NCBI RefSeq assembly: GCF_008065095.1
Contig: NZ_CP042911.1
Span: 2,910,001-2,942,000, forward strand
Direction of reading: 5' to 3'
Origin: Gemmata obscuriglobus
GTDB taxonomy: Bacteria > Planctomycetota > Planctomycetia > Gemmatales > Gemmataceae
Length of the DNA: 32,000 nt
Numbering within the stretch: position 1 is the stretch's first letter; each line of letters begins with the position of its first letter. The notes beneath the pieces are model-generated. The model did not search any database. It had not been told where the DNA came from and was given only the letters and a program-made list of their open reading frames with translations. The position numbers and the translations under genes were made by a program. Shown here piece after piece: positions 22,176-28,061 of the stretch.

Positions 22176-22820
22176 ATGCGACCCGCACTCGCGTTCGGTG
22201 TGCTGCTCGGCACGCTGGCACTGGCGCACGCGCAACCGTCCAAGGACCCCGACCCGCGGTACGGGGTCACCGCGCGGGTCAAGGTGCACCTGCAAACGAG
22301 CCCGAAAGAGGCGCTCAAAACGACCCTCGCGCTGATCGACGCGGGGCAGTACGCGTACCTCGCGGCCCACGTCCTCGACCCCAAGTTCGTGGACGAGATG
22401 GTGGCCGACCGCACGAAGGCGTTCGAGGCCGGGGCGGAGCGCGAGCTGGCCAAGCTGCGCGACTTCCAGCGCGCCAACCCCGACCAGGTGCAGGGGCAGG
22501 ACCGCGTTCCGCTGGACCCGAAGGCGTTCCGGGCGGTGGCGGAGCAGAAGGCCCGCGACCTGGCGTTCAAGCAGTTCCTGCGTGACATTGAGGAGAAGTT
22601 CCGCGAGGACCCGCAATCGCTGAAGGACCTGCGGAAGATCCTGCGCGAGGGCAAGTTCTCGGAGGCCGACCCGACGGCGTCCGCGGGGCACGACACCGTG
22701 AAAGGGCGCACGGTGCACTTTAAGAAGATCGGCGACCGCTGGTTCCTGGAGAACCGGGTCGCCGAGGAGCCCAAGAAGGAAGAAGAGCCGAAGAAGGAAG
22801 ACCCCAAGAAGGGGCCGTAA
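22176..22820 (+). CDS. Secreted hypothetical protein with a Lys/Glu-rich C-terminal tail
   Basis: 214 aa with a signal peptide (LALAHA-QP), a helical charged body, and a tail ending EEPKKEEEPKKEDPKKGP. Confidence 0.6.
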   Translation: MRPALAFGVLLGTLALAHAQPSKDPDPRYGVTARVKVHLQTSPKEALKTTLALIDAGQYAYLAAHVLDPKFVDEMVADRTKAFEAGAERELAKLRDFQRANPDQVQGQDRVPLDPKAFRAVAEQKARDLAFKQFLRDIEEKFREDPQSLKDLRKILREGKFSEADPTASAGHDTVKGRTVHFKKIGDRWFLENRVAEEPKKEEEPKKEDPKKGP

Positions 22821-22858
22821 CGTCGCCGCTCGGCGCGCGGCCGTGTTCCGCGGGCCGC

Positions 22859-23869
22859 TTACTTGTTGATCCACTTCAGGATGGTCGGGCCGGGCACGGT
22901 CATCTTCACGACCATCTGGAGTGACGACCCTTGCGGCTCGGGCTTCCCGGGCGGTTTCGGCTTGTCGTCCTTTTGTTCCTGCCGCTTCTCGTCGGTCCGC
23001 GACAGCTTCGGCGAACCGACGGGCCGCACCGGCTTCCGGCGTGCCGGGTTCTGGGGGGCCTCGTCGGCCGCGTCGATGTTGAGCGTCAGCGCCGCCATCC
23101 CCACCACCGCGCCGTACTTGTTCAGCACCGGCCCGCCGCTCGAACCGCTCGCGTAGTCGGCGGTGATCCCCATCCACTTCTCGCGATTCTTGTCCTCGTT
23201 GGTGTGGGTGCTGTACCGCGTGACCGCGCCCTGGGTGTACACGTAGAACAGGTCGCCCGGGTGGCTCAGCACCCCGACCCACGAGCCGACCTCGGCGAAC
23301 GCGGGCGACACGGCCAGCGGCACCAACTCCCGGGCGGAGATGCGGAACACCGCGACGTCGGCGGTTCTGTCGCCGCCGAGGAAGTCGGTGACCGGGTACA
23401 CGTTGCCGTTGCGGTCGGCGGCCCCGAACACCTCGCCGCCTTTGAGGTCCTCGAAGACGTGCCAGTTGGTGACGAGCACGCCGTCGGCGGCCGCGACCCA
23501 CGCGGTCGCGTAGGTGCCGGTCTCCCAGTTCCCGTCCTTGTCGGGGTACACGCTGCCGACGACGAACACGCTCGGCTCGGCCAGCTTGTACACCTCTTCC
23601 GGCGCGAGCGCCTTGCGGCCCGGTTCGGCGGCGGCGATGTTGGCGCTGCCGGGCTTCATTTTCGCGAGGAGCTTCTTGTGCGCGAGCGGCCTCTTGGCCT
23701 TGGCCAGCTCTTCGAGCTTCTCGTACAGGTTCTTGTACACCGCGTCGTCGTCGACGAACTTCGGCTCGCGGGGGGCCTCGGCCTTGGGCGGCTGCGCGGC
23801 GGCACCGAGCGCAACTGCGCAGCCGAGCAGGAGCGCGAGTGGGAGGGCCGCAGGCATCGGTTTGCGCAT
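22859..23869 (-). CDS. Trypsin-like (S1 family) serine protease, secreted or lipoprotein
   Basis: A signal peptide with a possible lipobox (LLLGC) is present. Catalytic triad candidates are TNWHV (His), TADVAV (Asp) and GSSGGPV (Ser). The C-terminal tail is basic and low-complexity. Confidence 0.8.
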   Translation of the reverse strand: MRKPMPAALPLALLLGCAVALGAAAQPPKAEAPREPKFVDDDAVYKNLYEKLEELAKAKRPLAHKKLLAKMKPGSANIAAAEPGRKALAPEEVYKLAEPSVFVVGSVYPDKDGNWETGTYATAWVAAADGVLVTNWHVFEDLKGGEVFGAADRNGNVYPVTDFLGGDRTADVAVFRISARELVPLAVSPAFAEVGSWVGVLSHPGDLFYVYTQGAVTRYSTHTNEDKNREKWMGITADYASGSSGGPVLNKYGAVVGMAALTLNIDAADEAPQNPARRKPVRPVGSPKLSRTDEKRQEQKDDKPKPPGKPEPQGSSLQMVVKMTVPGPTILKWINK

Positions 23870-23891
23870 ATGCTCTCGGTCGCTTGCGGGA

Positions 23892-24257
23892 TTAGGTGGC
23901 TTGGTAGGCAGTTAAGAGGCGCGGCAGTTCGAGGAGCGCGCTCTCAAATTCAGCGAGGCGCAGTTGCAGTTCCGCCCGTTCTAATGGCGTCAATCGCCCC
24001 TGATCGATCATCCCCGAAACTTGCTGGGCGAGACCGCGGGCGGCGGGCCGGAACCGGTCCAAAAAAACTTTGACGGCCTGGAACTCGGCCGCGACGACCC
24101 GTTGCGTCTCTTTCCCATAAAGGCTTTTCGTCGCGGCCTCTTTCAAGTCCCTGAGCTGGGTGTGAATGCTGGACATCTTTTGCTGGTACTCACGCAAAAG
24201 CGGCACAACCGTGGCGGTGAAGGTCTCGGGCGGATCGATCACGATTTCTTCGCTCAC
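23892..24257 (-). CDS. Small all-helical hypothetical protein, translationally coupled to the upstream GTPase-like gene
   Basis: 121 aa from a GTG that overlaps the upstream TGA (GTGA at 24254-24257), preceded by GGGAGGAG. The sequence is heptad-like (LRDLKEAATK.., ERAELQLRLAEFESALLEL). Confidence 0.6.
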   Translation of the reverse strand: MSEEIVIDPPETFTATVVPLLREYQQKMSSIHTQLRDLKEAATKSLYGKETQRVVAAEFQAVKVFLDRFRPAARGLAQQVSGMIDQGRLTPLERAELQLRLAEFESALLELPRLLTAYQAT

Positions 24258-25120
24258 GGCTTCTCCTCCCAAGCTCGGATCGTTTGGAACACCCGCACAA
24301 GGCGCTGCACGGCGGCGGCCAGGCGTGGCATGTCGAAACTGCCAGACGCGGTCGAGTACAGCTTTTCGCCCGCAAGCGTTTCGAGGTTTTTGAGGATCAG
24401 CGAAACGAATGCGAAATCGTGTCGGAATGCGTGCGCGCCGAGGGCGTTTTGCATCTCCCGCACCGCGGTCATGTACTCGCCCGCTTGGTAGTGGCTTTCG
24501 ACCTCTCCTTGTTGCCCGGCCCACAGATCCTGCTTCGCGACGACCGACAGAAACCAGATCTTTTGTTTGCAGACCGAAACGAACGGAACCAACTGCCGGA
24601 GGACGCGCAACTCCTCTTGTCGTCGGTCGGCGGGGAGAGCCGACAAGAAGCCCGGTTTGGTTCCGGTCGTCGCCCACAACGCGTGAGATTTGTAGCTCGG
24701 CGTACTGAACGTGTGGTATCCGTACGCGCTCACCAGGATGATGCCCCGGAACGCGCCCTCCGCAATTTGGCGGTGCAACCCGGGCCACGTGTGTTCTCTG
24801 CGGAACGTTTGGCCCGGTGCCACGACGACCGTGACGGTTTCGTCGTCCTGCAGCGGGAACTCCTCGATACCGTCACTTTCTGTGTACTTGCCGGCGTTTT
24901 CGTCGAACCAGTCCAACTGACCGGCGAGGAGCCGCGCGAGCGTGGTTTTACCCACACCGCCAGGACCGATGATGAGAACCCCTCGACTCGGTTCCGGAAG
25001 CCCGCCGTCCGACCGCGAGGGGCGATTGAATTGGTCCCTCAGCCACTCCCAAATGCCGCGCAAGACGCCCTTCGTGACTTCGCGGCCGGCGTTCTCGATA
25101 TCGAAAGCACCTTCGCCCAT
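24254..25120 (-). CDS. Divergent P-loop NTPase, most like MglA/CvnD-type Ras-superfamily GTPases
   Basis: 288 aa with Walker A/G1 GPGGVGKTT. VVVAPGQ sits at the G3 position (PGQ without Asp, as in MglA) and VVAKQD at the NKxD/G4 position. It carries N- and C-terminal extensions relative to a ~195-aa MglA. Confidence 0.6.
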   Translation of the reverse strand: MGEGAFDIENAGREVTKGVLRGIWEWLRDQFNRPSRSDGGLPEPSRGVLIIGPGGVGKTTLARLLAGQLDWFDENAGKYTESDGIEEFPLQDDETVTVVVAPGQTFRREHTWPGLHRQIAEGAFRGIILVSAYGYHTFSTPSYKSHALWATTGTKPGFLSALPADRRQEELRVLRQLVPFVSVCKQKIWFLSVVAKQDLWAGQQGEVESHYQAGEYMTAVREMQNALGAHAFRHDFAFVSLILKNLETLAGEKLYSTASGSFDMPRLAAAVQRLVRVFQTIRAWEEKP

Positions 25121-25163
25121 CTCGTATCCCCGGACGAATTATCGCACGCCGGCGCCGAGCCGT

Positions 25164-26318
25164 CTACTCCGTGCGCTTGGCCCGGGTCTCAGCGTACCCG
25201 GCTTCGAGCCGGCGGGTCAACTCGGGGAACTTGTCGAACAGCCGCTTCGGGGTCCGCCTCTCGCACCGCGTCAGCGAGTACGCCGTCAGCAGCGGCAGCG
25301 CGATCGTCGAGTCGACGTAGCACGTCACCGAATCCGGGAGCTTCTCGGGGTCCACCTTGCCCCACGTCATCGCCTCGCTCGGCGTCGCGCCGCTCAGCCC
25401 GCCGGTGTCCGGGCGGGCGTCCGTGAACTGCAAGAAGTAGTCGTGCCCCGCCTCGAGCAGCCCGAGCACCTCCTGAATTTGCGGCTCGGTCTGGAGCATG
25501 AAGTTCTTCGGGCTGCCGCCGCCCAAAATCAGCACGGAACTGGTCCCGCCGGCGGCCTTCGCGTCCCACACGATCGACGCCGACTGGTTCACGTCGCGGA
25601 GCGGGTCGATGCGGAGCTGCGAGCCCTCCAGCATCAGCGCCGCGAGGTTCATCCCGATGGAGCTGTCGCCCGGCGAGCTGGTGAAGATCGGCACCCCGTG
25701 CCGGTACGCCGCGGCCAGCAGGTTCTTGCCCCTCACCCCCGTCTGGTCCTCGCGCTCCGCGAGGTACTTCCCGACCAGGTTGTGGAACTCCGCGGTCCCC
25801 ATCGTGTGCTGGAACGCGTCCCCGCGGCACAGGGCGCGGAAGAACTTGTCCGTGCCCAGCAGGTTCTCGTAGTCGAAGACGATGTCGTAGATACGGATGA
25901 CCTGGTTCTCGCGCAGCTCGTGGTCCGGCAGGCTCGGCCCGGCCTGGAACAGGTCCATCCCCAGCGCGTAGTGGGTGTCGTGGTACAGGTTCGCCCCGGT
26001 CGAGACGATCCAGTCGATGAACCCCGCTTCCACCAGCGGCACCAGGCACGACATCCCCAAGCCGGCGGGCGTCAGCGCCCCCGAGAGCGCCAGCCCGATG
26101 GTGCCGTTGTCGGCCAGCATCTTGCGCACGAAGAGCTGGCACCCCTCCCGCAGCCGGCCGCCGTTGTACGAGAGGAACGCGCCGTCGATCAGGTCCGCGG
26201 TCCCGGCGCCCGGCGCGACGGGCGCCGGGTCGATGCGGTGGCGGCTGATCTTGTGGAGGAACTCCTTGTTGGCGTCGGTCCCGGCGTGGCGGTCGTAGCT
26301 CGGCTTGTGCGGGTGCAT
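25164..26318 (-). CDS. Deoxyhypusine synthase-like protein (DHS / homospermidine-synthase superfamily)
   Basis: 384 aa. It contains GGG.PKN and SEAMTWGKV, which match the eukaryotic DHS catalytic-lysine motif (EAVSWGK, from memory), and the sequence is DHS-like along its full length. Confidence 0.85.
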
Positions 26319-26330
26319 GGCGTCCGTGGG

Positions 26331-27014
26331 TCAGGGGTCGGGGGCAAAGGGGCATTCTATGACGCCGAGTTCGCGCAGCGCCGCGGCGTACTCCTCCGGC
26401 GTGTTCAGGTTGCGGAGCGACCGGAGTTCGGGGTCCGCGTCGCGCAACTCGCTCGCGCTCAAGGCCCGGGGCGGCACGAGGGTGAAGAGGTCCGTCATGC
26501 GCAGCCGGTTCGCCGCCAGCATCGCGCGCGCGACCGGGAGCACGCGCGCCCGGTACGCCGCGGCCAGCGGGTGGAGCCGGCCGCCGATTTGCGGCACCGC
26601 GGCCCAAACACTCACCCACCAACCCTCTTCCTGAAGGGATGAAGGGTCGCCCAGGCCTGCGATCACACGCCGCACGAACGCCGGCGTCAAGAACGGGGCA
26701 TCGCACGCGGACAGGTACACCGCGTCGCACGCCCCGTCGAGCGCCGTGAGCCCCGCGACCAGCCCGCCGAGCGGCCCGCGGCCCTCGACCTCGTCGCGAA
26801 CGACGGGCACGCCGTCCGGCAACGGCGGGACCTCCTGGTCCGGTGCCGCGACCACGACGACAAAGTCGGTCGATTCGCGCACGGCGCGAACAACACGCGG
26901 GAGCAACAGCTCGTTGCCGAAGGGGAGGGCAGCCTTCGGGCGCCCCATGCGCGCGGATTTGCCCCCACAGAGGACGATTCCACCGACTTTCATGCGCCGC
27001 TGCTCCGAAATCAT
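26331..27014 (-). CDS. mobA: Molybdenum cofactor guanylyltransferase (MobA-like)
   Basis: GIVLCGGKSARMG.PKA.L.F, PLGGL and SACDAPF are typical MobA motifs. An alternative start lies at 26993 (MKVGG). Confidence 0.8.
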   Translation of the reverse strand: MISEQRRMKVGGIVLCGGKSARMGRPKAALPFGNELLLPRVVRAVRESTDFVVVVAAPDQEVPPLPDGVPVVRDEVEGRGPLGGLVAGLTALDGACDAVYLSACDAPFLTPAFVRRVIAGLGDPSSLQEEGWWVSVWAAVPQIGGRLHPLAAAYRARVLPVARAMLAANRLRMTDLFTLVPPRALSASELRDADPELRSLRNLNTPEEYAAALRELGVIECPFAPDP

Positions 27015-27089
27015 GCGCCGGGCGGAATTCTGCGCCGCCGCGCATATTTTCTATTGACCGGCAGAACGTGTGTTACTGTCCTATGAGAA

Positions 27090-28061
27090 GTGTATCTAGC
27101 GCTTTACGCCCCGGTGCGTGTGAGTACGCCGATGTTCTTTACTGCTTTCCGGCGGCTGTTCCGACGCGAACCGTCGCCCCAGTTACACACCTCGGACCTC
27201 GTGCGGGACCTCGGGCGCATCGAGTCGTTCCCGACGCTCTCGCACGTGACCGTGCGGGCGATGGCGCTGACCAACGACCCGAAGGCCACGCTGGCGGACG
27301 TGGCCGAGCTGATCCGGCACGACCCGGTGCTGTCGGTCGGGGTTTTGAAGGTGGCGAACTCGGCCGCCAACCGCGGCCGCCGCGCCAGCGAGAACGTGCA
27401 ACAGGCGACCGTGCGGCTGGGCATGCGCCGGTGCCAGCAGGTCATCGCCACGGTCGGCGTGCGCGGGGTGTTCAAGTACACCTCGCCGCTGGCGGAGCTG
27501 ATGTGCGAGACCCTGCTGCGGCACTCGCTGTTCACCGCCAACATCGCGTCGCGCCTGAACGCCGCCGGCGAGCTGGGGTTCCGCGGCGAGGAGTTCACCG
27601 CCGGGCTGCTGCACGACATCGGGCGCGTCATCATGTGCGTCCGCGCGCCGGCCGCGTTCGCGTCCCTGGACCCGCTCACGTTCCAGGAGGACGGCGGCAT
27701 TCTGGCGCGGGAGCGGGACGCGATCCAGTTCGACCACTGCGAGATCGGGGTGCGGTTCGCCCGCGCCAACCAGTTGCCCCCGACCGTCACGAACGCGATC
27801 CTGAACCACCACTACCCGCAAGCCGAGCGCGAGTTCCCGGTGCTGGTGGCGCTCGCCGCGGTCGCCGACGGGATCGCCAACCACGCCCAGCGCGAGCGCA
27901 AGCTGACCAACTACCGGCCCGAGAAGTGCCCGGGCTTTATTCGGCTGCTGGCCAACGTCGGCCCCGAGAAGACACGGGCCGTGCGGGCGGCCGTGTCGCG
28001 CGCGGTGGTGGAGTCGCTGCGCGAGACGCGGGCCATGCTGAAGCTCACCGCAACGATGTGA
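27090..28061 (+). CDS. HDOD domain protein (signalling/regulatory)
   Basis: LP.L..V..R...L..DP.A...D.A.LI..DP.L...VLK.ANSA...GLLHDIG is the HDOD signature. The GTG at 27090 or the ATG at 27132 could be the start. Confidence 0.8.
   Translation: MYLALYAPVRVSTPMFFTAFRRLFRREPSPQLHTSDLVRDLGRIESFPTLSHVTVRAMALTNDPKATLADVAELIRHDPVLSVGVLKVANSAANRGRRASENVQQATVRLGMRRCQQVIATVGVRGVFKYTSPLAELMCETLLRHSLFTANIASRLNAAGELGFRGEEFTAGLLHDIGRVIMCVRAPAAFASLDPLTFQEDGGILARERDAIQFDHCEIGVRFARANQLPPTVTNAILNHHYPQAEREFPVLVALAAVADGIANHAQRERKLTNYRPEKCPGFIRLLANVGPEKTRAVRAAVSRAVVESLRETRAMLKLTATM

What the first reader, a model, noticed from the sequence alone, without database searches (positions are those of the whole stretch)
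23892..25120. MglA/CvnD-like GTPase translationally coupled to a small helical protein instead of a Roadblock partner
The 288-aa ORF has G1 GPGGVGKTT. At the G3 position it has VVVAPGQ; the PGQ-without-Asp variant characterises MglA-type prokaryotic Ras-superfamily GTPases (TVPGQ in MglA, from memory). At the G4 position it has VVAKQD. It also has ~45-aa N-terminal and ~60-aa C-terminal extensions. Its TGA overlaps the GTG of a 121-aa heptad-rich, apparently all-alpha ORF, which is preceded by GGGAGGAG, a rare strong Shine-Dalgarno sequence in this window. Known MglA and conservon GTPases are paired with Roadblock/LC7 (alpha/beta) proteins. A coiled-coil partner would be a different regulatory or effector pairing.
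Basis: partly seen in the sequence, partly recalled or inferred. Interest (0 to 1): 0.7.

Follow-up and report, generated by a model that had tools for sequence, protein, structure and literature searches.

The report
Planctomycete small GTPase with helical-bundle partner
Two overlapping Gemmata genes encode an unannotated Ras-fold GTPase-like protein that lacks the usual catalytic-site aspartate, plus a small three-helix-bundle protein always encoded with it; the pair recurs across Planctomycetota and looks like a new kind of bacterial GTPase switch with a dedicated partner.

Summary
On the minus strand a 288-aa ORF (A, 24254-25120) ends in a TGA that overlaps the GTG of a 121-aa ORF (B, 23892-24257). 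The window is Gemmata obscuriglobus (GobsT_25020 and GobsT_25010).

A matches no Pfam, NCBIfam, PADLOC or PDB sequence family beyond its Walker A loop. A confident AlphaFold model has the full Ras-type order of strands and helices. Its best structural matches in PDB and in the viral library are almost all small GTPases (Sar1/Arl, Gtr1/RagA, G-alpha, SR-beta, Rab/Rho), with no AAA+ or STAND protein among the 50 best PDB matches.

Across 116 homologues GxGGxGK[ST]T, PGQ and KxDLW are invariant, and the G3 aspartate position is always hydrophobic.

B is a confidently predicted three-helix bundle. Homologous B genes follow A in about 30 loci, and in 24 of 31 the start overlaps the A stop as [AG]TGA. 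No Roadblock gene is nearby.

So this is a GTPase with a helical partner, but not an MglA or CvnD family member. It is an undescribed family of at least 358 clusters, mostly Planctomycetota. RomX, the three-helix-bundle partner of MglA, is the closest functional precedent.

Rare variants fuse a nucleoside-phosphorylase domain to A or a ribosomal L7/L12 C-terminal domain to B. The cellular function is unknown.

The parts
24254..25120 (-). Gene A: 288-aa Ras-fold GTPase-like protein (GobsT_25020), founding member here of an unannotated family
   Evidence: ORF and translation. 100% identical to P0001. AlphaFold model pLDDT 88.2, pTM 0.87, with element order beta1-alpha1-beta2-beta3-alpha2-beta4-alpha3-beta5-alpha4-beta6-alpha5. 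The 50 best Foldseek PDB matches are all GTPases.
25034..25099 (-). N-terminal helix of A (residues 8-29), Trp-rich, with W26 nearly invariant
   Evidence: Model (pLDDT about 69). Alignment. Hydrophobic moment is only modestly above shuffled controls.
24941..24967 (-). G1 / Walker A motif GPGGVGKTT (residues 52-60)
   Evidence: Read from the sequence. G52, G55, G57 and K58 are invariant in 116 of 116 homologues.
24875..24886 (-). Candidate switch I / G2 motif Y79-x-E81-S82, just before beta2
   Evidence: Y in 111, E in 103 and S in 105 of 116 homologues. Position relative to beta2 (86-89) from the model. The assignment as G2 is an inference.
24809..24829 (-). G3 / switch II motif VVVAPGQ (residues 98-104), with no Asp
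   Evidence: G103 and Q104 are present in 116 of 116. Position 100, where the Walker B / G3 Asp would be, is V in 98, I in 12, A in 4, L in 1 and T in 1, and never D or E.
24521..24538 (-). G4-like motif AKQDLW (residues 195-200), directly after beta5
   Evidence: K196, D198 and W200 are present in 116 of 116. Position 195 is T in 49, A in 46, S in 7, G in 7 and V in 6, and never N.
24386..24403 (-). G5-like motif S240-L241...N245, directly after beta6
   Evidence: S in 107, L in 110 and N in 114 of 116. Position from the model.
24263..24270 (-). GGGAGGAG: the codons for W284-E285-E286 of A, which also serve as the Shine-Dalgarno-like sequence for B
   Evidence: TGGGAG(G) lies about 8-12 nt before the B start in most related loci. 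W284 is present in 115 and E285 in 103 of 116.
24254..24257 (-). GTGA: the start codon of B overlapping the stop codon of A
   Evidence: The same [AG]TGA overlap occurs in 24 of 31 related loci.
23892..24257 (-). Gene B: 121-aa three-helix-bundle partner (GobsT_25010)
   Evidence: Translation. Model pLDDT 88.7, pTM 0.77, with helices 10-44, 48-85 and 91-119. Homologues lie downstream of A in about 30 loci. A profile search finds 108 proteins with no Pfam domain.
24186..24200 (-). B conserved motif 1, LLREY (residues 20-24) in helix 1
   Evidence: L20, E23 and Y24 are at least 90% conserved among 21 diverse partners.
23943..24017 (-). B conserved motifs 2 and 3: SGMIDQ (81-86, end of helix 2) and ELQLRLAEFE (96-105, start of helix 3)
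   Evidence: S81, E96, L97, R100 and E105 are at least 90% conserved. By helix positions these residues and motif 1 lie at the same end of the bundle (inference).
25138..25166 (-). Sigma-70-like promoter match in the 43-nt gap between the deoxyhypusine-synthase gene and A
   Evidence: Consensus scan: 9 of 12 matches with an extended TG. One site was found in the region against 0.2 expected. This is not evidence of function.
25164..26318 (-). Upstream neighbour: deoxyhypusine-synthase-like gene (DS)
   Evidence: PF01916, E 1.4e-65. The same gene lies directly upstream of A in 5 other loci.
22859..23869 (-). Downstream neighbour: Trypsin_2 peptidase with a lipobox-like N-terminus, 22 nt after B
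   Evidence: PF13365, E 3.4e-20. The same family lies downstream of B in 4 other loci. LLLGC at the N-terminus.

Best explanation
A and B form a dedicated two-protein switch.

A is a guanine-nucleotide-binding protein of the Ras-like (TRAFAC) fold. It represents a previously unannotated family, mostly planctomycetal. Its motifs are G1 GxGGxGK[ST]T, G3 hhh-P-P-G-Q with a hydrophobic residue in place of the Asp but the catalytic Gln kept, G4 [T/A]K[Q/E]DLW, and G5 S-L.

B is an antiparallel three-helix bundle made from the same mRNA by stop/start-coupled translation, so the two are produced together.

I infer that B binds the G domain through the conserved polar patch at one end of the bundle (LLxEY, SQxIEH, ELxLRLxExE). 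On this reading it acts as A's cognate nucleotide-state partner: a co-regulator of hydrolysis or exchange, or an effector/adaptor that reads A-GTP, as RomX does for MglA. The fast-evolving opposite end and the C-terminal tails of B would then connect the switch to lineage-specific outputs.

Shown: both genes, their coupling, their conservation as a pair, the predicted folds and the motifs.

Inferred: GTP rather than ATP use, physical A-B binding, and the direction of regulation.

Unknown: the cellular process controlled.
For: Fold of A:
- The model has pLDDT 88.2 and pTM 0.87. Its secondary-structure order maps one-to-one onto a Ras G domain.
- It includes a beta2-beta3 pair joined by only 7 residues, which must be an antiparallel hairpin. 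That hairpin is the TRAFAC hallmark.
- All 50 best PDB fold matches are GTPases: Sar1/Arl, Gtr1/RagA, Arl2, G-alpha, SR-beta, Rab, Rho, IRG and EngB, with E from 1.5e-6 to 4e-4.
- Most of the best viral-library matches are giant-virus Ras, Rab and Ran proteins.

Motifs of A:
- G, K, G-Q, K-x-D-L-W and S-L are invariant or nearly so, and each sits directly after the expected strand.

Family size:
- 358 clusters at 50% identity have E <= 1e-30. Nearly all are 265-300 aa.

B and the pairing:
- B is a three-helix bundle (pLDDT 88.7).
- Homologous B genes lie directly downstream of A in about 30 loci from Gemmataceae, Isosphaera, Fimbriiglobus, Thermoguttaceae, Pirellulales and a Bacteroidota MAG.
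- 24 of 31 loci have the [AG]TGA overlap.
- NCBI locus tags of A and B are adjacent in four genomes.
- The identity matrices of A and B correlate (Mantel r 0.64, 0 of 5000 permutations reach it). Paralogous pairs within one MAG have diverged in both genes.

Business end and variable end of B:
- The nearly invariant residues of B cluster at one end of the bundle.
- Insertions, hydrophobic segments and appended domains occur at the other end or at the C-terminus.
- One B carries a ribosomal L7/L12 C-terminal domain (PF00542, E 3e-15). From established knowledge, that domain contacts the G domains of translational GTPases.

Precedent:
- RomX is an 11.4-kDa three-helix bundle that binds MglA-GTP (bioRxiv 10.1101/2024.02.20.581209; PMC13408092).

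Context:
- Surroundings are chromosomal and housekeeping-like, with no phage, plasmid or IMG/VR copies.
Against: - No sequence method connects A to any GTPase family. Sub-threshold Pfam matches cover the P-loop only and are mostly to AAA/STAND-type models.
- The fold assignment therefore rests on one predicted model. TM-scores to GTPases are modest (0.3-0.6) because of inserts.
- The G3 Asp, which helps hold Mg2+ in almost all GTPases, is replaced by Val or Ile. The G4 Asn is never present. Nucleotide specificity and activity are therefore untested.
- No complex model could be made, so A-B binding is inferred only from gene coupling and co-divergence, both of which shared ancestry also produces.
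- B's fold search gives only generic helical bundles with E > 0.1. RomX is not matched by sequence.
- Low GC3 of both genes relative to neighbours, fast evolution of B, and the phosphorylase fusions fit a conflict system as well.
Confidence: 0.55

Rival explanations
1. The pair is the core of a conflict (anti-invader) system. A would be an NTPase switch of the kind used in bacterial immune modules. B would be a rapidly evolving sensor or adaptor. Effectors would be either fused, as the nucleoside phosphorylase domain is in some members, or supplied elsewhere.
For: - Two independent loci fuse an N-terminal PNP_UDP_1 domain (PF01048, E about 2e-12, above the curated cut-off) to A and still keep B.
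- PNPase domains are predicted effectors in bacterial conflict systems, including in Gemmata, and GTPase switch domains occur in such systems (PMC8195603).
- One fusion locus lies next to a Phage_portal_2 gene.
- B evolves faster than A (mean identity 24% against 38%) and varies in length from 93 to 266 aa.
- Some MAGs carry paralogous pairs.
- A and B have lower GC3 than flanking genes in the window and in 21 of 21 loci examined.
Against: - No PADLOC model matches beyond the P-loop.
- The great majority of members have no effector domain.
- Neighbourhoods are metabolic and housekeeping genes, not defence islands.
- The DS-A-B-peptidase arrangement is kept between Gemmataceae and Isosphaera, which is unlike the turnover typical of defence genes.
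- No copies were found in phage, plasmid or IMG/VR collections.
- The GC3 comparison is partly biased, because some flanking ORFs were selected with a GC3 filter.
Confidence: 0.22
2. One reading: A is a divergent member of the MglA/CvnD group of prokaryotic Ras-like GTPases that has exchanged its Roadblock partner for a helical one.
For: - Like MglA, A lacks the G3 Asp but keeps PGQ. [quoted passage not shown]
- A has a Ras-like fold.
- MglA also has a three-helix-bundle binder, RomX.
Against:
- No Ras, Arf, Roc or Gtr1 Pfam model is matched by any of 50 members at meaningful scores.
- MglA is absent from the 50 best fold matches.
- The replacing residue is Val or Ile, not Thr.
- A is about 90 residues longer and has family-specific inserts.
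- No MglB/Roadblock gene and no conservon-type neighbours were found.
Confidence: 0.08
3. A is not a GTPase. It would be an ATPase of another P-loop class (AAA+/STAND or SIMIBI such as ArsA, MinD or SRP-like), or a catalytically dead nucleotide-binding scaffold.
For: - The Walker A loop GPGGVGKTTLA resembles AAA+/STAND and ArsA/SRP-type loops.
- All sub-threshold Pfam and PDB sequence matches are of that kind.
- tblastn picks up an ArsA-like protein through the P-loop.
- The hydrophobic residue at the G3 Asp position could impair Mg2+ binding.
Against: - Those matches cover only about 25 residues around the P-loop.
- There is no hhhhD[DE] Walker B, no sensor or Arg-finger motifs, and no C-terminal lid.
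- The model has the antiparallel beta2-beta3 hairpin, with K-x-D after beta5 and S-L after beta6.
- No AAA+, STAND or SIMIBI protein is among the 50 best PDB fold matches.
- The invariant Gln at the catalytic position argues against a dead enzyme.
Confidence: 0.07

Closest known systems
MglA with RomX (and RomR) of Myxococcus xanthus
   Same: Both are prokaryotic Ras-fold GTPases without the G3 Asp that work with a small (11-13 kDa) monomer-sized three-helix-bundle protein. RomX binds MglA-GTP (bioRxiv 10.1101/2024.02.20.581209; PMC13408092).
   Different: A shows no detectable sequence relation to MglA and B shows none to RomX. RomX is not among B's 50 best fold matches. Here the two genes are translationally coupled in one operon, and no receiver-domain protein or Roadblock GAP accompanies them. 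The G3 replacement is Val or Ile, not Thr.
MglA-MglB and the actinobacterial conservon (CvnA-D)
   Same: Each is a small G protein encoded next to its dedicated regulator.
   Different: Those regulators are Roadblock/LC7 alpha/beta proteins. B is all-alpha, and no Roadblock gene was found in the window or in related loci. There is no sensor kinase or DUF742 neighbour.
Arf/Sar1/SR-beta/Rag(Gtr1)/G-alpha group of the Ras-like superfamily
   Same: These are the best structural matches of the A model. A has a G4 K-Q-D-L as in Arf, and a Gln after the G3 Gly. It also has an Arg-Arg...Trp stretch after G3 that recalls the RxxW of Arf, Sar and G-alpha (that last comparison is from memory, not tested). 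A also carries an N-terminal helix.
   Different: No Pfam Arf, SRPRB or Gtr1_RagA match reaches threshold. hhalign against Arf1 aligns only the P-loop region. The Asp of DxxGQ is absent. TM-scores are only 0.35-0.6. A is a bacterial protein with family-specific inserts.
Group 1 Rup GTPases (Wuichet and Sogaard-Andersen 2014, PMC4316618)
   Same: These are bacterial small GTPases with a departure from the usual G3 motif and a conserved coiled-coil neighbour. A missing catalytic residue is proposed to come from a partner in trans.
   Different: Rup lacks the Gln but keeps the Asp, whereas A keeps the Gln but lacks the Asp. Rup neighbourhoods have four genes including an OmpA-domain protein and a cyclase or kinase. 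Rup proteins are recognised by Ras-family models, and A is not.
NTPase-centred bacterial conflict systems with PNPase effectors (Kaur et al. 2021, PMC8195603)
   Same: Rare members of the A family have an N-terminal PNP_UDP_1 domain fused to the NTPase. This follows the effector-plus-switch layout of those systems.
   Different: The core family has no effector or adaptor (Death-like) domains and no PADLOC match. Its genomic context is stable and housekeeping-like.

Membership tests
Ras-like (TRAFAC) small GTPase fold | G1 / Walker A GxxxxGK[ST] | tested here: met
   GPGGVGKTT. G52, G57 and K58 are present in 116 of 116, and position 59 is T or S in 115 of 116.
Ras-like (TRAFAC) small GTPase fold | Six-stranded sheet with an antiparallel beta2-beta3 hairpin and element order beta1-alpha1-beta2-beta3-alpha2-beta4-alpha3-beta5-alpha4-beta6-alpha5 | tested here: met
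   The predicted model (pLDDT 88.2) has this order. Strands 86-89 and 97-100 are joined by 7 residues. All 50 best PDB fold matches are GTPases, and giant-virus Ras/Rab/Ran proteins dominate the best BFVD matches. This rests on a prediction, not an experimental structure.
Ras-like (TRAFAC) small GTPase fold | G3 DxxG with the Mg2+-linked Asp | tested here: not met
   The Gly (and the following Gln) are invariant, but the Asp position is V, I, A, L or T in 116 of 116.
Ras-like (TRAFAC) small GTPase fold | G4 [NT]KxD, which confers guanine specificity | tested here: inconclusive
   K196 and D198 are invariant and lie directly after beta5. The first position is T in 49 of 116, otherwise A, S, G or V, and never N.
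Ras-like (TRAFAC) small GTPase fold | GTP binding and hydrolysis | not testable with these tools
   Needs biochemistry.
MglA family | Sequence similarity to MglA/Ras-superfamily models | tested here: not met
   Pfam and NCBIfam give P-loop-only, sub-threshold matches.
MglA family | G3 TxxGQ (Asp replaced by Thr) | tested here: not met
   A is Asp-less like MglA, but the residue is Val or Ile. Thr occurs in 1 of 116.
MglA family | Gene coupling to MglB (Roadblock/LC7); 404 of 488 MglA genes are coupled in PMC4316618 | tested here: not met
   No Robl_LC7 match among the neighbours in 30 loci or among 32 ORFs of the window.
Conservon CvnD | Four-gene cvnABCD operon (sensor kinase, Roadblock, DUF742, GTPase); this definition is from memory | tested here: not met
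   The neighbours are a deoxyhypusine-synthase-like gene, a MobA-like gene and a Trypsin_2 gene.
AAA+ / STAND (NB-ARC, NACHT) NTPases | Walker B hhhhD[DE], an all-parallel core sheet with a C-terminal helical lid, and family HMM matches above threshold | tested here: not met
   Only Walker A matches, all below the curated cut-offs. No such protein is among the 50 best fold matches. The strand after the P-loop helix ends in PGQ.
RomX-like three-helix-bundle GTPase partners | Small monomeric three-helix bundle | tested here: met
   The B model has helices 10-44, 48-85 and 91-119, with pLDDT 88.7. Oligomeric state is unknown.
RomX-like three-helix-bundle GTPase partners | Homology to RomX (PDB 8ZNA) | tested here: not met
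   The B family profile searched against PDB sequences gives no match with E < 0.02, and RomX is absent. RomX is not among the 50 best fold matches.
RomX-like three-helix-bundle GTPase partners | Binds the GTP-bound form of its GTPase | not testable with these tools
   No complex prediction was available. Needs pull-down or ITC with GTP analogues.

The most novel reading that the evidence does not exclude
A and B form an obligate heterodimeric 'split' GTPase. Because A has lost the G3 aspartate, the three-helix partner would complete the active site in trans, using its invariant Arg (R100) and/or acidic residues (E23, E96, E105). Nucleotide binding or hydrolysis would then occur only in the complex. 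This would be a bacterial small-GTPase lineage separate from both MglA and Rup. Its nearest folds are the Arf/Sar/Rag group, and it is largely confined to Planctomycetota, bacteria known for elaborate internal membranes, where it could control a membrane or envelope process.
Probability: 0.12. Interest if true: 0.8.

Novelty: new variant of a known kind. Interest (0 to 1): 0.55.

Why it matters
Surveys of prokaryotic Ras-superfamily GTPases recognise two families, MglA and Rup, and treat loss of the G3 aspartate as unique to MglA (PMC4316618). Those surveys relied on sequence models that do not detect this protein.

A third family would widen the known repertoire of bacterial G-protein switches. 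It is invisible to Pfam, lacks the aspartate, has several hundred members, and always comes with its own co-translated helical partner. It gives a second, independent case for asking how a GTPase works without that aspartate.

It also gives a genetically approachable pair: Gemmata obscuriglobus is cultivable. The pair can be used to test whether small helical bundles are a general class of bacterial GTPase regulators or effectors alongside Roadblock proteins.

If the conflict-system reading is right instead, this is a new NTPase-switch module for bacterial immunity.

Tried and rejected
- **Sequence classification of A.** I tried Pfam, NCBIfam, PADLOC and PHROGs, then phmmer and a profile hmmsearch against PDB sequences, then hhalign against Arf1 and MglA. 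All returned Walker-A-only matches.\n- **Fold search of B.** It returned only generic helical bundles with E > 0.1. IMG/VR gave only P-loop matches.\n- **Arf-like amphipathic N-terminal helix.** The hydrophobic moment is only slightly above shuffled controls (0.45 against 0.34 +/- 0.12), so I make no claim.\n- **Prophage context of the phosphorylase fusions.** Beyond one portal gene, the neighbours have no informative domains.\n- **Armatimonadota member.** The look-up of P0099 found no contig.\n- **STAND/AAA+ and SIMIBI assignments.** Considered and rejected on fold and motif grounds.\n- **The 298-aa ORF at 23892-24788.** Considered as a real gene and rejected, because homologues start at the overlap.
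Full report
**Observation**

The window is from Gemmata obscuriglobus: both proteins are 100% identical to GobsT_25020 and GobsT_25010. On the minus strand a 288-aa ORF (A, 24254-25120, ATG start) carries GPGGVGKTT, VVVAPGQ and VVAKQD. Its TGA overlaps the GTG of a 121-aa ORF (B, 23892-24257) as GTGA, and GGGAGGAG lies 5 nt upstream of that GTG.

The octamer alone is not significant: 3 copies against 1.27 expected. GGAGG is depleted in the window, 63 against 91 +/- 10. The motif is the W284-E285-E286 codons of A.

**What A is, by sequence**

Pfam, NCBIfam, PADLOC and PHROGs all fail to recognise more than the Walker A loop. So do phmmer and a 50-sequence profile searched against all PDB sequences. 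Scanning 50 family members one by one gives only sub-threshold, P-loop-only matches. Most are to AAA/STAND-type models, and a few are to RsgA or SRPRB. By sequence, then, A belongs to no described family.

**What A is, by structure and motifs**

An AlphaFold2 model built from 50 homologues is confident (pLDDT 88.2, pTM 0.87). Its elements are, in order:

- an N-terminal helix (8-29)
- beta1 (47-51) and the P-loop
- alpha1
- beta2 (86-89) and beta3 (97-100), followed by PGQ
- alpha2
- beta4
- an insert, then a long alpha3
- beta5 (188-194), followed by KQD
- alpha4
- beta6 (232-238), followed by S-L
- a loop, then alpha5 (264-286)

This maps one-to-one onto a Ras-type G domain. Beta2 and beta3 are joined by only seven residues, so they must form an antiparallel hairpin. 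That hairpin separates the TRAFAC GTPases from the SIMIBI and AAA+/STAND classes (class definitions from established knowledge, Leipe et al. 2002).

Foldseek against PDB returns only GTPases in the top 50: Sar1/Arl, Gtr1/RagA including an Asgard Rag-like protein, Arl2, G-alpha, SR-beta, Rab, Rho, IRG and EngB, with E from 1.5e-6 to 4e-4. MglA is not among them. In the viral library most of the best matches are giant-virus Ras, Rab and Ran proteins.

Across 116 full-length homologues:

- G52, G55, G57, K58, G103, Q104, W112, K196, D198 and W200 are invariant.
- The position of the G3/Walker B aspartate is V in 98, I in 12, A in 4, L in 1 and T in 1, and never acidic.
- The first G4 position is T in 49 and A in 46, and never N.
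- Y79-x-E81-S82 before beta2 is a candidate switch I.

**The family**

A profile search of 1.84 billion cluster representatives finds 358 with E <= 1e-30 and 812 with E <= 1e-10. Almost all are 265-300 aa. In species-level genomes, the 29 true loci are nearly all Planctomycetota: Gemmataceae, Fimbriiglobus, Urbifossiella, Isosphaera, Thermoguttaceae and Pirellulales. There are a few MAGs labelled otherwise, and a Bacteroidota MAG came from another look-up. No copy was found in phage, plasmid or IMG/VR collections.

**What B is**

B has no family match. Its model is a confident antiparallel three-helix bundle with helices 10-44, 48-85 and 91-119 (pLDDT 88.7). So it is not a Roadblock/LC7 fold. 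Fold search gives only generic bundles with E > 0.1.

In every locus where sequence continues past A, a homologous gene follows. In 24 of 31 loci its start overlaps A's stop as [AG]TGA, and most of the rest overlap by 8-11 nt. TGGGAG(G), the Trp-Glu codons near A's C-terminus, sits just upstream.

The partners range from 93 to 266 aa and are only about 24% identical on average. They share three motifs: LLxEYxxK, aSQxIEH and ELxLRLxExE. By helix position these all lie at one end of the bundle (inference). Length variation, a duplication and two hydrophobic segments lie at the other end or at the C-terminus.

A profile of 21 diverse partners retrieves 108 proteins, all without Pfam domains. Many are on the same contigs or carry adjacent locus tags to A homologues.

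The pairwise identity matrices of A and B correlate (Mantel r 0.64, 0 of 5000 permutations reach it). Two pairs within one MAG have diverged in both genes. This shows inheritance as a unit. It does not prove contact.

**Variants that hint at function**

Two loci (L023 and L047/P0165) encode A with an N-terminal PNP_UDP_1 nucleoside-phosphorylase domain, and both still have B with the ATGA overlap. One lies beside a phage portal gene.

One Fimbriiglobus partner (L015) ends in a ribosomal L7/L12 C-terminal domain (E 3e-15). From established knowledge, that domain docks onto the G domains of translation factors.

Subgroups of B carry conserved C-terminal tails, GGPLxP and RYKAPF.

**Context**

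In the window A-B lies between a deoxyhypusine-synthase-like gene (43-nt gap, containing a sigma-70-like match) and a Trypsin_2 lipoprotein-like peptidase (22-nt gap). The same four-gene, same-strand arrangement occurs in L001, L005, L006 (Isosphaera) and L022, and as far as the contig reaches in L020. Other members sit in unrelated metabolic contexts.

No Roadblock gene, defence gene or mobile element is seen in the 32-kb window.

Both genes have lower GC3 than their neighbours: 0.76 and 0.71 against 0.86-0.98. The sign is the same in 21 of 21 loci. There is a caveat: some flanking ORFs were picked with a GC3 filter.

**Interpretation**

The best-supported reading is a dedicated small-GTPase switch with a co-translated helical partner. 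A binds guanine nucleotide through a Ras-type pocket whose Mg2+-linked Asp has been lost. B binds A through its conserved polar end. B either tunes the nucleotide cycle or reads the GTP state and passes it on through its variable end.

The nearest functional precedent is MglA with the three-helix bundle RomX (PMC13408092 argues that RomRX is an effector of MglA-GTP). No homology to either protein is detectable.

The main rival is a conflict-system switch. It is favoured by the phosphorylase fusions, the fast evolution of B, the paralogues and the low GC3. It is disfavoured by the stable housekeeping contexts, the lack of effectors in most members, and the absence from mobile elements. Membership of the MglA/CvnD families and a non-GTPase P-loop identity were both tested and are not supported.

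**Novelty**

The literature searches run here found no description of this family. [quoted passage not shown] I rate this a new variant of a known kind: the fold and the switch logic are familiar, while the family, its G3 chemistry and its obligate helical partner are not.

Noticed in passing
window 22859-26318; L001, L005, L006, L020, L022: The deoxyhypusine-synthase-like gene, A, B and a Trypsin_2 peptidase form a tight same-strand four-gene block, shared between Gemmataceae and Isosphaera. The synthase is 67-69% identical between these loci, while A is only about 40-50% identical. Whether this is an operon with a functional link or merely retained synteny is unknown.
   Followed up: partly
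window 23800-24800; 21 related loci: A and B sit in a composition trough, with GC about 0.60 against 0.69 around them. GC3 is 0.76 and 0.71 against 0.86-0.98 for neighbours. The same sign is seen in 21 of 21 loci. Some flanking ORFs were chosen with a GC3 filter, so the size of the effect is uncertain. The cause is unexplained: weak codon adaptation, or a mobile or conflict-type history.
   Followed up: partly
L023 3936-5756; L047 1884-3692 (P0165): Two family members have an N-terminal PNP_UDP_1 (nucleoside phosphorylase superfamily) domain fused to the GTPase-like domain, and both still have the helical partner downstream. In L047 the next gene, on the opposite strand, is a phage portal protein.
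   Followed up: partly
L015 5813-6382: One partner protein, from a Fimbriiglobus MAG, carries a C-terminal ribosomal L7/L12 C-terminal domain (PF00542, E 3e-15, 56.7 bits). This was seen only once among about 130 partners.
   Followed up: partly
L032 5711-6271; L002, L012, L029; L006, L020, L022: The partner proteins vary at their far end. L032 has two hydrophobic, possibly membrane-spanning segments inserted between helices. One subgroup ends in LNAMKGGPLxP and another in RYKAPF. The Bacteroidota partner (L003) appears to have an internal duplication of the first motif.
   Followed up: no
window, whole: GGAGG is depleted on both strands: 63 occurrences against 91 +/- 10 in shuffles, and all 100 shuffles have at least 63. 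This fits sparse use of Shine-Dalgarno sequences in this genome.
   Followed up: no
window 24263-24270 and the equivalent sites in related loci: The ribosome-binding-like sequence for B is made of the nearly invariant Trp-Glu codons at A's C-terminus (TGGGAG). Protein conservation and translational-signal conservation therefore cannot be told apart. Where Glu is replaced by Gly, the DNA stays purine-rich (TGGGGG).
   Followed up: partly
window 22859-23869 (minus strand): The Trypsin_2 peptidase downstream of B starts MRKPMPAALPLALLLGCAVA, which has a lipobox-like LLLGC. This suggests an exported lipoprotein.
   Followed up: no
P0095 (Logan contig, 2113 nt): A 413-aa apparent A-B fusion protein in the database is a frameshift artefact. 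A's last 45 or so residues are read out of frame and run into B.
   Followed up: yes
window 25138-25166 (minus strand): This is the only sigma-70-like promoter match in 22500-27300. It has an extended -10 TG and falls in the 43-nt gap just upstream of A. Planctomycete promoters may differ from this consensus.
   Followed up: no
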